Shown here piece by piece: positions 15,174 to 23,398 of a stretch of DNA of 64,000 nt (position 1 is the stretch's first letter; each line of letters starts with the position of its first letter). The notes beneath the pieces were generated by a model, which saw only the letters and a program-made list of their open reading frames with translations, ran no database searches and was not told where the DNA came from. The translations under genes were made by a program, and so were the position numbers. Source of the stretch: Octopus vulgaris (taxonomy: Eukaryota); the NCBI GenBank assembly GCA_951406725.2, contig OX597821.1, positions 102,610,001 to 102,674,000 of the forward strand, in the 5' to 3' direction.

Positions 15174-15590
15174 GATCAGCAACAATTTAGATTCAAATGA
15201 ATATGGTACTTAATTTAGATGCACCAGAATTTTGTATGGTGTTACCCATAAAAATATGCGGGGTGATTATAATAAAAATAAGCAACAAGAATGATTCCGG
15301 TAATTTAGTACACTTGTTTCATACTACAACAGAGTTTTGGCCAGTTGGCATCTCAACCACACATCCTCATGTTCCTAAAATTCATATCTACATCTTTATC
15401 TGTATATTTACCTTCCCTAGGATGTTATTACTTGATCTGATAACTTTTATATTATTGGAAAACCTATATAAATTAGCTGAAGATTACTCAGCATCTTAAA
15501 TCTGCTGGAATATTTACAGCTTTTAATAAAATGTTGTAGTATGAAACAATTGTACTAAATTACCGGATTCATTCTTTTACTTATTTTGCA
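15174..15590. mobile_element. Family D hammerhead-bearing element with asymmetric inverted repeat, between (TA)n tracts
   Basis: Arms 15274-15330 and 15532-15588; hammerhead motif at 15473-15558 (+); homologous to 22846-23398. Confidence 0.75.
15473..15558 (+). ncRNA. Predicted type I hammerhead ribozyme (family D, covarying copy)
   Basis: ttag-CTGAAGA-t-tact...agta-t-GAAAC-aatt-GTA-ctaa. Confidence 0.6.
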
Positions 15591-15670
15591 TATATATATA
15601 TATATATATATATATATATATATATATATATGTGCGTATGTGTGTGTGTGTGTGTGTGTGTGTGTGTGTG

Positions 15671-15815
15671 TACTGGCGGGTAAGCTGCAGCTATAGTTCT
15701 GCTGTTTTGTGGGTCAGCTGGAGAACGATAGAAGCCACGGGTGACTTTCTGCTCCCAGTGGACGTTGAAGACCTTCCAGAGCATTCGTACGAAGCAATGA
15801 GTTGTTCATAGACCG
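15671..15815 (-). mobile_element. RTE-clade LINE fragment, degraded
   Basis: RMLWKVFNVHWEQKVT resembles the RMLR..LNV.W...VTN motif after the RT domain. Confidence 0.55.
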
Positions 15816-16009
15816 TTTAACAATTTTCCTCTAGAACATTATCAAAAATAACTTGTGTGGTAAGAAATTTGTTTCCCAACCAAGTGGTTCCGGGTTCAGT
15901 CTCACTACGTGGCACTTTGGGCAAGTGTCTTTCACTATAGCGCTGAACCAACTAAAGCCTTGTGAGTTAATTTGGTGAAAGAAGCCCGTCGTATATATAT
16001 ATATATAAC

Positions 16010-16176
16010 GGGAAGCTTTATGAAAATAATCAAAAGACGAAGGCAGGTGGAATACAAACAAACAATTGTATTAGTATGGCCTACGCTCTTCAACAGAAAG
16101 ATACACAGAAAAGAAAAACGGAGAGAAAGAAGGAGAGAAAAAAAATGCGTGCAGAAGCTAGCGAATCAACATGGCG
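16010..16176 (-). mobile_element. Family B element (motif partly deleted) nested in the microsatellite of a SINE
   Basis: Homology to 40909-41096; lies between SINE head (15855-15992) and SINE tail (16735-16950). Confidence 0.65.
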
Positions 16177-16229
16177 ATATATACACACACACACACACAC
16201 ACACACACACACACACACACACACACATA

Positions 16230-16716
16230 TAGCAATCCCTCGAATATCGCGGGCGTTATGTTCCAAGCCCCGCCTCGCAATAGGTGAAAATCCGCGAAGT
16301 AGAAACAACTGTATAGTTTTAAAATTATTTTTATAATTTGTATATGTCTATATTATTATAAATGCTAAACACCACCAAACACTCGTCTCCCGAGTTTCGT
16401 TCTTCCTACGGTATGTGCGATTCTTTGTTTACTCTCATTTACGGTACACTATGTATTTTCTTTAATATATTTTGATTAATGTGTTGTACAGAGCAGTACT
16501 GTACCCTATTTTTATTTTTAATTATTAAGTTTTAGGTGTGAAAATGCTTATTTTACCACAAGTAATAAAAATCTAAAACAATCTAAATACCTATCGGTCG
16601 CAGAAACCCGCGATATACTGAGGAGTCCACGATATAAATTTACATATATTAGCCAGAAAAATCAGTGATGTACTGAGGGCGCGATAGGTGAACCGCGATA
16701 TGGCGAGTGATTATTG
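16230..16716. mobile_element. pogo/Tigger-like MITE
   Basis: Imperfect TIRs tagcaatccctcgaatatcgcgg / ccgcgatatggcgagtgattattg; TA flanks; subterminal cgcgata repeats. Confidence 0.7.
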
Positions 16717-19138: not shown

Positions 19139-19380
19139 ATATATATATATATATATATATATATATATATATATATATATATATATATATATATATATAT
19201 ATATATATATATATATATATATATATATATATATATATATATATATATATATATATATATATATATATATATATATATATATATATATATATATATATAT
19301 ATATATATATATATATATATATATATATATATATATATATACGTATATATATATATATATATATATATATATATATATAT
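19139..19380. repeat. ~240-bp (TA)n tract with one interruption, the longest of dozens
   Basis: Seen directly. Confidence 0.95.
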
Positions 19381-20314
19381 GTATGTACGTATATATATAT
19401 ATGCACATATATATATATATGATATGTGTGTGTATATATATGTATATATATGTATATATATATATATGTGTGTATATATATATATATACGTATATATGAT
19501 ATATATCTTAATTTTATATATGCATATACATATATATATATATATCTGTACAAATATATACATACACACGCATATGTGTGTGTATGTGTATATGCATATG
19601 TGTGTGTATGTGTATATGTATCTATATGTATATGTATATATATATATATATGTGTGTATATGTATGTATGTATCTATCTATCTACCTATCTATCTATCTA
19701 TATATATATATGTGTATATATATATATATATATATATATATATATATATGTGTGTATATATCTATCTATCTATATATATATATATATGTGCACACATACA
19801 TACATACATACATACAAATATATTATGTAGCATAGCTTCAACACACGCACACACACAGACGCATACATGCGTATATTAATACTTCACCCAGTGCACTCCG
19901 TACACAATCTCACCGTCACAAATCACACATCACACGTTACATACATACATACATACATATGTATATACATACATATATCTATCTATATATATATATATAT
20001 ATATATATACGTATACAACTGAATACAAATGCTGCTTTCCTTCTTCATTTTCATCCCGTTTTTTTTTTCTCTTTTTCTTATTAATCTTCTGTTTACATAT
20101 CCAACAGCTGTATGTGTTCCGATTCATATTATTTTCCAGATTTCCTCATTCACACCACATGAAATGAATGACAAACAAACGCCTTATACGAAATATGGTT
20201 TATTTATTAAAATTCTTTTGCGGCTTTCTCTTCTTTTATTTCTTTCATAATATTTATGCTTCCCACCGTTTTGCATCACACATTTAGTTATCATTAATAT
20301 TACTGAAATATTAC

Positions 20315-21470
20315 TGGCAGAATCGTTAGTGCGTCGAACGAAATGCTTAGAGGTATTATTTCTTTCAGTAGTAGTAGTAGTGGTTGTGGTAGTTATAATA
20401 GTAGTAACAGCAGTTCAAATTCCTCTGAAGCCAACTTTGCCTTTTATTCGTTCTGGGTCGATGAAATAAATACCTGTTGAAGATTGGGGTCGATGTAATT
20501 GATTTAACCCCCTCCCCATTTACCAAAATTACTGGTGTTCTGTCATTACTAGAAATAATTAAAATTGGTTATAATTTTGTGCACAAGGTCAGTCTTTTGT
20601 GGGAGGGAGTCGGTCGCTTACATCAACTACAGGGCTTATTTAATCCTTGTTTTAGGGACTCCAGAAAAAATGAAAAGATATAAAGTCGACTTCAGAACGT
20701 AAAAAAAACCCGGCCGAAACGCTACTGAACATTTTGACCGGTGAGCTAACGATTCTTATTTCTTCATTACCCACAAGGGGCTAAACATAGAGGGGACAAT
20801 CAAGGACAAACAAAGGGATTAAGTCGATTACATCGACCCCAGTGCGTAACTGGTACTTATTTAATCGACCCCGAAAGGATGAAAGGCAAAGTCGAGCAAA
20901 GAAGGAAAAGAAAAAAGTTGATGGAGGCTGTGGTGGTGGGATGTGAAGCATTAGAAGGCGGAGGAGGATGCGCGATGGACCAGTTGTTGATGATCTAACT
21001 TTATTACCGAACGATTATCCTTCGCCCATAGCCATGCTCGGTCAACAAGTCCATTCTTATTTCTTTATTGCCCACAGGGGGCTAAACCTGGAGGGGACAA
21101 ACAAGGACAGACAAACGGATTAAGTCGATTACATCGACCACAGTGCGTAACTGGTACTTATTTAATCGACACCGAAAGGATGAAAGGCAAAGTCGACCTC
21201 CGCTGAATTTGAACTCAAAACGTAACGGCAGACGAAATGCCGCTGAGCATTTCGCCCGGCGAGCTAATGATTCTGCCAGCACGCCGATCTAGAAAGAATA
21301 TTAGTGAAATACACGTTTCAAATTTTAACACAAGGCCAGCAATTTTGGAGGCGGAGGTAAATAAATCACATTGGACCTCCACCACCCGCCGTGCTCGACT
21401 GTTACTTATTTTATCGAACCCGAAAGGATGAAAGGCGAAGTCGACGATTCTGCCTGCTCGCCGCCTTAGA
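20315..21470. mobile_element. Cluster of S2 SINE copies in both orientations (clear minus-strand copies 20757-20896 and 21057-21286)
   Basis: Homology to the 12.2-12.9 kb unit. Confidence 0.75.
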
Positions 21471-22635
21471 AAGATTTAATATTATGGCTAATATTACAGG
21501 CAGAATAATTAGTGCTCATTAAACCAGTTGCTCATTAAATCCCCGCATAAGCGATTGCATAATCCACAAACACTGTTGACGTAATTCTCTGAGGGGAAAT
21601 CAGAGTGTCACATGTGACAAGCCTTTAAATCACCGGTACAATTGCATTCACAAAGTTTGGATCGACCCGAGTACATATATACATATATACATGCATACAT
21701 ACATACGTACATACATACATACATACATACATACATACATACATACATACATACATACATACATACATACACACATATATAAATAAATACATACCCTCTC
21801 TCTCTATATATGTATATATATATACAAAAATATGTATATGTGTATATATGTTTATATATATATGTATGTATATATAATATATATATACTTGTACATATAT
21901 ATATATATATATATATCATGTTCCGATATTCCGAACTTTAAATATGGCGACCAACATACATCGTCATCATCATTATCATCATCCTCATCATTGGCGTCGT
22001 ACCCATCATCGTTATCAAAAATATCATCCTCATCATCACCGTCATCATCATCATCATCATCATCATCATCATCATCATCATCATCATATATATATATACA
22101 TTATGTTATTATACATATTATGTATATATACATATATAATGTTGGAAAACACTCATTCAAGATGTCAGGCAGTATGGAAATCAATGGTGCGGTCGCTCTT
22201 TGCCAGGTGAATTTTCCCTATATTTACCCGTGTTGCCCCCTTTGACGGAACTGCAGTCCTGGATTCAGTGAAGACTAAGAGAAGAGACTTTATATCTAAA
22301 GTCTTATCAGTCAGACACTGTGGTCAACAGGGTTCGATACACGTTTTGTCAAACATGTTCCATTGACAAGGTTTGCAGTTGCCCCTTTTTCAGGTGCGGT
22401 TTCCTGTATTTCGTCGCTTTGGGCGTCTTGGATTAAGTCCTAATCAAAGATTAAAACAGGGAACTTAGCATCTAGCGTATTATCAGCGTTCACAACCCTC
22501 CACCTGTTGGACATGTCGACGGATGGGACTTCCCCGTTAGTACTTTATTGAAAAATGACGAGGAAACGCTAAACGTTCTCGAGAGAAACTTCAAGAGGAC
22601 CTTCGACTCGGGGACTACGGATAACTACAAGAAAT

Positions 22636-22806
22636 AGGCACCGGTGTGGCTGTGTGGTAAGAAGTTGACTTCCTAACAACCGCATGGTTACGGGTTTATT
22701 CCCACTATGTGGACCTTAAGCAAGTGTCTTCTTTAATAGCCTCGAGCCGACCAAAGCTCTGTGAGTGAATTTAGTTAAACAAGACTAAGTGAAAGAAATT
22801 CACGTA
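22636..22806 (+). mobile_element. SINE S1 head, followed by (TA)n and the family D palindrome
   Basis: Homology to 18411-18578. Confidence 0.7.
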
Positions 22807-22845
22807 TATATATATATATATATATATATATATATATATATATAT

Positions 22846-23398
22846 ATCAAAATAAGCAACAAGGATTTCCAAGGTAGTGTAGTACAATTGTTTCATGCTA
22901 CTTCATTTTATTAAACACTGTAAGTATTACATCAGTTTTAAAATGTCGAGCAATCTTCAGCCACATATAGAATTTTTCAATTAAACGGACAATGCACATT
23001 CTTATACTTATTTCATTTGCCAACATTACAAAGAGAGTAGATATATATTTCATCATTAAGAACATACTACCACCATGTTCTTAATGATGAAATTAACCTC
23101 TCTGTCTATATATCTACCCTCTTTGTAATGTTGGCAAATGAAATAAGTATAAGAATGTGCATTGTCCGTTTAATTGAAAAATTCTATATGTGGCTGAAGA
23201 TTGCTCGACATTTTAAAACTGATGTAATACTTACAGTGTTTAATAAAATGAAGTAGCATGAAACAATTGTACCACACTACCTTGGAAATCCTTGTTACTA
23301 ATTTGATTATAATCACCCCCTTTGATTTGTATGGATAATACCATACAAAATTCTGGTGCCTTTAACTTAAGTACCATATTCATCTGAATCTAAATTTA
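22846..23398. mobile_element. Family D element: ~200-bp inverted arms, central hairpin and ~90-bp one-sided extension
   Basis: 22846-23048 is the reverse complement of 23107-23307 with few mismatches; hammerhead motif at 23189-23276. Confidence 0.8.
23189..23276 (+). ncRNA. Predicted type I hammerhead ribozyme (family D)
   Basis: tgtgg-CTGAAGA-t-tgct...agca-t-GAAAC-aatt-GTA-ccaca; U.U instead of G-C closing stem II. Confidence 0.6.

What the first reader, a model, noticed from the sequence alone, without database searches (positions are those of the whole stretch)
15473..23276. Compensatory covariation in two copies of the family D hammerhead
Seen: copy 1 (15473-15558) is ttag-CTGAAGA-t-tact...agta-t-GAAAC-aatt-GTA-ctaa. 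Copy 2 (23189-23276) is gtgg-CTGAAGA-t-tgct...agca-t-GAAAC-aatt-GTA-ccac. Core and palindromic stem III are identical, while both strands of stem I (two pairs) and stem II (one pair) changed together. Both have a ~50-nt loop 2 and a U.U where G10.1-C11.1 is usual. Inference: the RNA structure was under selection in the master elements, and this may be a non-standard hammerhead variant.
Basis: partly seen in the sequence, partly recalled or inferred. Interest (0 to 1): 0.72.

Follow-up and report, generated by a model that had tools for sequence, protein, structure and literature searches.

The report
Long-armed hammerheads of Penelope retrotransposons
The two motifs are leftover ends of a Penelope-type jumping gene with thousands of copies in what is likely an octopus genome, and paired base changes across its subfamilies show that a predicted self-cutting hammerhead RNA shape was preserved; that link is known, and only the unusually long second arm stands out.

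Summary
Both motifs are real, and a third copy lies on the minus strand. They are 5'-truncated ends of Hydra-clade Penelope-like retroelements (PLEs): longer genomic copies carry the RT plus GIY-YIG ORF upstream in the same orientation, and copies sit in (TA)n. Two exact patterns find 6,586 such hammerheads (reversed controls 0). Three corrections. (3) U10.1.U11.1 is known: 14 of 25 published Hydra-family hammerheads have it, and it is reported as the best-tolerated mismatch. Here it is not one clade. Cleavage after GUA as a dimer through the palindromic helix III is predicted, not shown. The 59-nt arm is the only unusual trait, and this scan found such arms before on other DNA. Verdict: modest variant of a known pairing.

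The parts
15473..15558 (+). Hammerhead copy 1 (subfamily A): type I, 4-bp stem I, U.U at 10.1/11.1, 59-nt stem II arm, palindromic 8-nt helix III, predicted cut after A15554
   Evidence: fold
15484..15542 (+). Extended stem II of copy 1 (4 bp, 1-nt bulge, further pairs, internal loop, apical hairpin; one private change at 15508 weakens the apical hairpin)
   Evidence: z -3.2 against shuffles; consensus fold; covariation
15330..15588 (+). 5'-truncated 3' end (pseudo-LTR part) of a Hydra-clade PLE, subfamily A, ending at (TA)n 15590-15631
   Evidence: EN-coding sequence upstream in longer A copies
15184..15331 (-). Inverted, more truncated arm of the same insertion (3' half of the hammerhead plus read-through tail), next to (TA)n 15114-15172
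   Evidence: self-BLAST
23190..23275 (+). Hammerhead copy 2 (subfamily B), U.U at 23201/23259, predicted cut after A23271; carries the minority CCAC stem I allele
22879..22964 (-). Hammerhead copy 3 (subfamily B, majority CTAC allele), inverted arm of the copy 2 insertion; predicted cut after A22883
22850..23304 (.). Head-to-head inverted pair of 5'-truncated PLE ends (91% identical arms), next to (TA)n 22805-22847
23305..23397 (+). Read-through tail of about 95 nt, homologous to the element's 5' UTR that follows the upstream hammerhead in the full-length copy L121

Best explanation
These are hammerhead-ribozyme motifs at the truncated 3' ends of a Hydra-clade Penelope-like retrotransposon lineage, whose fold was kept by selection in the master elements and which likely cut the element's RNA after GUA only when two copies pair through the palindromic helix III. 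Shown: host element, copy number, covariation in stems I and II and the apical hairpin, neutral decay after insertion, and the pLTR-ORF-pLTR layout with two same-strand hammerheads in a full-length relative. Inferred: a tandem read-through transcript brings two hammerheads together (8-bp intermolecular helix III; as a monomer helix III is unstable); cleavage is likely slow and protein-assisted, as reported for the anole element; reverse transcription likely starts at one of two internal sites downstream of the cut site on uncut or re-ligated RNA, because insertions end about 35 or about 130 nt past it. U.U at 10.1/11.1 is a tolerated alternative to G-C and G.U. The window's own copies are likely inert relics.
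For: EN-coding sequence lies 0.5-1.7 kb upstream on the same strand in longer copies: 45 rows, 12 of them subfamily A; subfamily B is linked through L074 (70-75% DNA identity to EN-coding parts). Full-length L121 has a 957-aa ORF with RWK, DKT, YRDD, CxCX5C, CxxC and CxH, and two hammerheads flanking it, the Hydra hallmarks of PMC8557442 section 11. 143 of 156 copies have a TA run within 260 nt, 64 at 30-49 nt and 75 at 120-169 nt. Covariation: 13 families, stem I 47 of 52 and stem II 50 of 52 cells paired against 32.9 and 35.3 by permutation, 0 of 100,000; 16 subfamilies, 93.2% paired against 81.4% and 13 double-change pair types against 5.0 in a relatedness-keeping null, 0 of 20,000; 0 of 500 shuffles. 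Helix III stays self-complementary in all 16 subfamilies and in distant families with other palindromes; self-duplex -6.4 against monomer hairpin +2.4 kcal/mol. Rare changes after insertion: core 5 of 348 against other 67 of 4,082 (B), core 3 of 288 against 49 of 3,600 (A), p = 1. Precedent: PMC4209133, PMC11167929, PMC3088659.
Against: No cleavage was tested. Rfam gives no hammerhead match (none among the 150 of 488 rows shown). Core conservation is partly built in, since copies were collected with at most one core mismatch, and the structure counted was drawn on these same sequences. The stem II extension alone is borderline (p 0.055) and the palindrome change (p 0.03) can arise by CpG decay. 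The stem I outer pair is an A.A mismatch in 3 of 16 subfamilies. Copy 1 prefers another fold by 7 kcal/mol. In the anole element, ribozyme mutants did not impair insertion in vitro, so the role of cleavage is open. Pfam support for the protein is weak (GIY-YIG E 0.025, below cut-off; none for L121).
Confidence: 0.85

Rival explanations
1. The fold is selected as a protein-binding or RT-positioning structure of the PLE ribonucleoprotein, and cleavage is vestigial or negligible in U.U subfamilies.
For: Insertions end 35 or 130 nt downstream of the predicted cut, so the template spans it. Ribozyme mutants did not affect insertion by the anole PLE, and no RNA-seq reads ended at its cut site. The long arm has invariant pairs away from the core.
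Against: All catalytic core positions and the NUH triplet are kept across subfamilies and distant families, which binding alone would not obviously need. U.U is reported as the best-tolerated mismatch at this pair.
Confidence: 0.1
2. The motifs cut efficiently as monomers because the long stem II makes a tertiary contact that replaces the usual loop-loop interaction and stabilises the 2-bp helix III.
For: Copy 2's minimum-energy fold already forms stems I and II as a monomer (-13.9 against -13.7 constrained). The arm is conserved and structured.
Against: Helix III stays palindromic wherever it varies, which a monomer does not need; monomer hairpin +2.4 kcal/mol; monomeric metazoan PLE hammerheads showed no cleavage.
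Confidence: 0.04
3. The apparent covariation is a by-product of shared ancestry and transition bias in an AT-rich repeat, with no selection on RNA structure.
Against: The null that keeps relatedness and transition class is rejected; slid-partner controls give 30-57% paired against 91%; transversion pairs occur (C-G against G-C, U-A against G-C); distant families have wholly different but paired stems.
Confidence: 0.01

Closest known systems
Hammerheads of Hydra-clade Penelope-like elements (Craig et al. 2021, PMC8557442, section 11 and File S2; includes Hydra-1_Obim of Octopus bimaculoides)
   Same: Type I hammerhead near the 3' end; CUGA(A/U)GA core; short stem I; self-complementary helix III; U.U at 10.1/11.1 in 14 of 25 listed families (my count); RWK, DKT, CxCX5C, CxxC, CxH motifs; (TA)n targets.
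   Different: 59-60 nt between A9 and G12 against at most about 26 in the listed Hydra families (loops of 3-10 nt). The element is about 4.6 kb with a 957-aa Asn-rich ORF and a 1.5-kb 3' UTR against under 3 kb. Hydra-1_Obim is another family (8-nt loop, other stems). The read-through tail is about 95 nt against the usual 30-40.
Minimal, dimer-forming hammerheads of metazoan PLEs (Cervera and de la Pena 2014, PMC4209133; Lunse et al. 2017, not held, known only through the review PMC6765202)
   Same: In pLTRs; many families per genome with compensatory changes; palindromic helix III; opposite-strand pairs 100-700 bp apart; mostly single truncated copies.
   Different: That paper stresses a conserved G10.1-C11.1 pair, an extra base after A9 and a helix II of 7-8 bp; here there is no extra base, 10.1/11.1 varies (G-C, G.U, A-U, U.U) and helix II is far longer.
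Natural U10.1-U11.1 hammerhead variant (Perreault et al. 2011, PMC3088659)
   Same: The same mismatch, stated to support more cleavage than any other mispair at this place.
   Different: There a rare variant; here about half of the pattern-matched copies (3,140 against 3,446).
PLE-X1 hammerheads of Selaginella (File S2 of PMC8557442)
   Same: Long helix II region (35-nt and 28-nt loops), marked as deviating from the canonical structure.
   Different: EN-minus plant elements of another clade; no sequence relationship was tested.
PAc (Poseidon) hammerhead of Anolis carolinensis (Frangieh et al. 2024, PMC11167929)
   Same: pLTR hammerhead; two internal RT start sites downstream of the cut site define the tail.
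   Different: Other clade; its protein-assisted cleavage was shown in vitro, whereas nothing is shown here.

Membership tests
Type I hammerhead ribozyme | Core C3 U4 G5 A6 N7 G8 A9, G12 A13 A14, A15.1-U16.1, H17 | tested here: met
   All three window copies; 1 of 11 core columns varies among 16 subfamilies, in a 2-copy group; collection allowed only one core mismatch.
Type I hammerhead ribozyme | Stems I and II supported by compensatory change | tested here: met
   (stem I p < 5e-5, stem II p 0.005 for cells paired).
Type I hammerhead ribozyme | Base pair at 10.1-11.1 (usually G-C) | tested here: not met
   U.U in the window copies; a published tolerated variant; sister subfamilies have G-C, G.U or A-U. 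Not an exclusion criterion.
Type I hammerhead ribozyme | Match to an Rfam hammerhead model | tested here: not met
   No hammerhead family among 19 hits or 43 hits at E up to 10; likely due to the long arm (inference).
Type I hammerhead ribozyme | Site-specific self-cleavage | not testable with these tools
   Needs a bench assay; only contigs, no raw RNA reads, were offered.
Dimer-forming PLE hammerheads | Short, self-complementary helix III | tested here: met
   Palindromic or G.U-compatible in 16 of 16 subfamilies; duplex -6.4 against hairpin +2.4 kcal/mol.
Dimer-forming PLE hammerheads | Cleavage needs two copies | not testable with these tools
   Bench assay.
Penelope-like elements (EN+) | Single ORF with RT and C-terminal GIY-YIG EN upstream of the hammerhead | tested here: met
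   L121 957 aa; EN linked to subfamilies A, C, C', G, H, I, J, K and B. Pfam GIY-YIG only at E 0.025. No ORF remnant in the window itself.
Penelope-like elements (EN+) | Pseudo-LTR tandem, inverted 5'-truncated copies, optional tail | tested here: met
   L121 pLTR-ORF-pLTR; both window loci are inverted pairs; two classes of 3' end.
Hydra clade | RWK and DKT motifs, CxCX5C linker, no CCHH, CxxC and CxH around E and N | tested here: met
   Read from the translations against section 11 of PMC8557442.
Hydra clade | (TA)n insertion preference | tested here: met
   143 of 156 copies; both window loci. The genome is TA-rich and no background rate was computed.
Hydra clade | Length generally under 3 kb | tested here: not met
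   About 4.6 kb in L121; a typical trait, not a defining one.
Hydra clade | RT phylogeny groups with named Hydra elements | not tested
   No named reference proteins were held as sequences; the 42 homologues are almost all unnamed.
Non-LTR retrozymes | Non-coding head-to-tail tandem units, each with a hammerhead | tested here: not met
   Copies are variably 5'-truncated ends of coding elements, not tandem arrays.

The most novel reading that the evidence does not exclude
The 59-nt stem II arm is a lineage-wide handle for the element's own RT-endonuclease, and the repeated swaps between G-C, G.U and U.U at 10.1-11.1 are selected tuning that keeps cleavage off until that protein binds; host A-to-I editing of the double-stranded transcripts hits the catalytic core and acts as a further off switch. 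The ladder of thousands of datable subfamily copies would be a natural record of a ribozyme crossing compensatory changes through G.U intermediates.
Probability: 0.2. Interest if true: 0.6.

Novelty: new variant of a known kind. Interest (0 to 1): 0.3.

Why it matters
The role of hammerheads in Penelope-like elements is still open. This lineage offers a large natural alignment with stepwise intermediates (A-U to G.U to G-C in stem II; G-C, G.U and U.U at 10.1-11.1) and a young relative with an intact ORF, so the questions of dimer need, protein assistance and arm function can be tested directly. Long-armed forms were missed by Rfam in every stretch tested here, so thousands may go uncounted. 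The covariation and the U.U pair themselves are expected and in print.

Tried and rejected
Rfam: no hammerhead hit. Expression and cleavage in vivo: no RNA holder listed; only contigs could be laid, which cannot show ends, so the cut site was not tested. Idea that edited RNA is retrotransposed and drives the A-to-G steps: no strand asymmetry among singleton changes (B 22 A>G against 16 T>C, p 0.26; A 28 against 26, p 0.34; G 4 against 4; the G ORF part had too few rows and failed). Idea that U.U arose once: rejected (p-AU 1.1e-10; the group is defined by sequence state, but I tested it after seeing the tree). Idea that the U after A9 is the extra base described in PMC4209133: rejected, since sister subfamilies have G-C at the same two columns. 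The first GIY-YIG ORF found (L072, minus strand) has a different linker and belongs to another neighbouring element; not used. Searches had a wrong gap length and were replaced. The loose scan was too noisy and was replaced. Lunse et al. 2017 is not held, so I cannot exclude that its variants include long stem II forms. Paper searches listed no paper on long-armed octopus PLE hammerheads; the library lacks most subscription papers.
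Full report
Observation. A motif scan found a third full copy on the minus strand at 22964-22879: copy 2 is one arm of a 455-bp head-to-head inversion with 91% identical arms. Copy 1 also has a shorter inverted arm. Both insertions are flanked by TA repeats. The exact pattern of the two core halves at this spacing has 1,132 matches in the 2.8-Gb genome and 0 for the reversed control. The genome is likely an octopus; this is an inference from size, microsatellite load and one homologue named from Octopus sinensis.

Host element. Longer copies of subfamily A carry, about 0.5-0.9 kb upstream on the same strand, the end of an ORF with a CxCX5C linker, a GIY-YIG-like core without CCHH, and CxxC and CxH motifs. 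That protein matched 150 of 150 scored candidates out of 19,096. Of 20 stretches fetched around long open frames, L121 is a full-length element: upstream hammerhead at 1089, 957-aa ORF with RWK, DKT and YRDD, 1.5-kb 3' UTR, second hammerhead at 5739, then (TA)n. These are the Hydra-clade hallmarks in section 11 of PMC8557442. One search lists 45 EN-hammerhead links within 2.5 kb, 12 rows for subfamily A; subfamily B (copy 2) is linked through L074, whose upstream DNA aligns at 70-75% with EN-coding parts of relatives. Pfam support is weak, and the 42 homologues at 29-44% identity (one at 70% over a fifth of the query) are almost all unnamed. No RT tree with named elements was built. Of 156 copies, 143 have a TA run within 260 nt of the cut site, in two classes: 64 at 30-49 nt and 75 at 120-169 nt. 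The longer class reads on into the 5' UTR, as after the upstream hammerhead of L121. This fits the two internal RT start sites reported for the anole PLE (PMC11167929, main text read) and means the template spans the cut site.

Covariation. From 188 loci, 200 candidate motifs fell into 47 clusters. In the 13 clusters with at least two members from two loci (singletons and three single-locus clusters left out), stem I was paired in 47 of 52 cells and stem II in 50 of 52, against 32.9 and 35.3 after permuting 3' halves; 0 of 100,000 permutations reached this. On 16 hand-picked rows, 91% of cells paired and 12 of 29 pairs had double changes; 0 of 500 shuffles reached the covariation score and slid partners gave 30-57%. 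A null that keeps relatedness and transition class, on 16 subfamilies holding 136 of 162 copies, gave 93.2% against 81.4% and 13 against 5.0 double-change types, 0 of 20,000; by helix, p was below 5e-5 (I), 0.005 (II), 0.055 (II extension), 0.0002 (apical) and 0.03 (III). The structure was drawn on these sequences and the core was required for collection, so both results lean towards the model. In copies fetched by BLAST, rare changes hit the core as often as other sites (B, 29 of 29 copies: 5 of 348 against 67 of 4,082; A, 24 of 29 copies: 3 of 288 against 49 of 3,600). These were top-scoring hits and counts are small, but they fit neutral decay after insertion and selection in masters.

The inner stem I pair of family B is G.U in 411 exact-pattern copies and G-C in 35; the sister arm of copy 2 has G.U. 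The column does covary over the lineage (7 A-U, 7 G-C, 2 G.U), so the conclusion survives though the example was partly accidental. The 'loop' folds as a helix (z -3.2 and -3.1), and RNAalifold finds stem II, its extension and an apical hairpin unaided, with double changes in 8 of 16 pairs. Intermediate subfamilies show G.U stepping stones at stem II pairs 2 and 3.

The U.U pair. Exact patterns give 3,140 copies with U.U and 3,446 with G.C or G.U, controls 0 (these include other lineages and are lower bounds). On trees built from flanks only (57 rows; 30 rows, without subfamilies C, D, J and K for lack of long flanks), U.U in A is separated from U.U in I and B by G-C subfamilies; holding them together is rejected (p-AU 1.1e-10). 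So there were at least two changes; two gains is my inference. The trait is in print: 14 of 25 Hydra families in File S2 of PMC8557442 (supplement part 2 read, my count), and PMC3088659 reports natural U10.1-U11.1 and says it supports more cleavage than any other mispair there (passages).

Mechanism. The 8-nt helix III is self-complementary in all subfamilies and changes as a palindrome in distant ones; it is stable as a duplex (-6.4) and not as a hairpin (+2.4 kcal/mol). I therefore predict cleavage after GUA by two hammerheads of a pLTR-ORF-pLTR or tandem transcript, slowly and perhaps with protein help, as for other PLE hammerheads (PMC4209133, parts 1 and 2 of 4 read; PMC11167929). None of this is shown for these sequences. 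The window's copies are likely inert: no same-strand partner is near, a transcript across locus 2 would fold back on its antisense arm, and copy 1 prefers another fold (-18.0 against -10.7).

Comparison and novelty. It works like, and by every feature testable here belongs with, the hammerheads of Hydra-clade PLEs. What differs is the arm: 59-60 nt against at most about 26 in the listed Hydra families, although two spike-moss elements in the same file have long loops. Rfam misses the motif. My reading was written before I consulted the scan's notes; eight of ten listed notes describe long-armed Hydra hammerheads on other DNA, which is not independent support. Searches listed no paper on this variant; Lunse et al. 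2017 could not be read (seen only as cited in passages of PMC6765202), and the supplements of PMC4209133 were not opened, so a prior record is possible. Of the preprint 10.64898/2026.07.22.740005 I read part 1 of 5.

Verdict. Real feature, selection on structure confirmed, host identified, U.U and covariation already known; a modest structural variant. Interest 0.3.

Noticed in passing
L121:5560-5870 (young subfamily G, not in the window): Contigs of 3 of 5 runs guessed to be RNA, from three studies, show an A>G and T>C skew (X5 12 and 10 of 28 listed places; X13 8 and 10 of 24; X3 5 and 0 of 13), some at core positions; the three runs of unknown kind (X15-X17) show 0-1 of each. This looks like A-to-I hyper-editing of both strands, but run types are guesses and there is no DNA of the same animals.
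   Followed up: partly
window 26777-26862 (+): Another hammerhead family: 8-bp stem I, G-C at 10.1/11.1, about 47-nt stem II arm, 12-nt palindromic helix III, GUC site; 44 matches from 40 scored of 836 candidates.
   Followed up: partly
window 46117-46215 (-): An older hammerhead family with U.U at 10.1/11.1 and a 72-79-nt arm, often in inverted pairs; 49 matches from 40 scored of 477 candidates.
   Followed up: partly
window 15063-15100 (+): A degenerate short hammerhead-like string (both core halves, one substitution, poor stem II) just upstream of the TA repeat of locus 1; may be chance.
   Followed up: no
L121:1377-4247 (+), also L122-L124: A young subfamily with intact or nearly intact ORFs of 875-984 codons and 96-98% identical EN ends; possibly recently active. 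The RT-EN linker has long Asn-rich expansions.
   Followed up: partly
window 23305-23397; 75 of 156 copies: The optional read-through tail is about 95 nt, longer than the 30-40 bp described for PLEs.
   Followed up: partly
window 12194-12901: Tandem array of 3.8 copies of a 185-bp unit of a common dispersed repeat.
   Followed up: no
L072:2321-2795 (-): GIY-YIG endonuclease fragment of another PLE type (CxxxxCxxC linker, CCHH-like residues) next to a subfamily A end.
   Followed up: no
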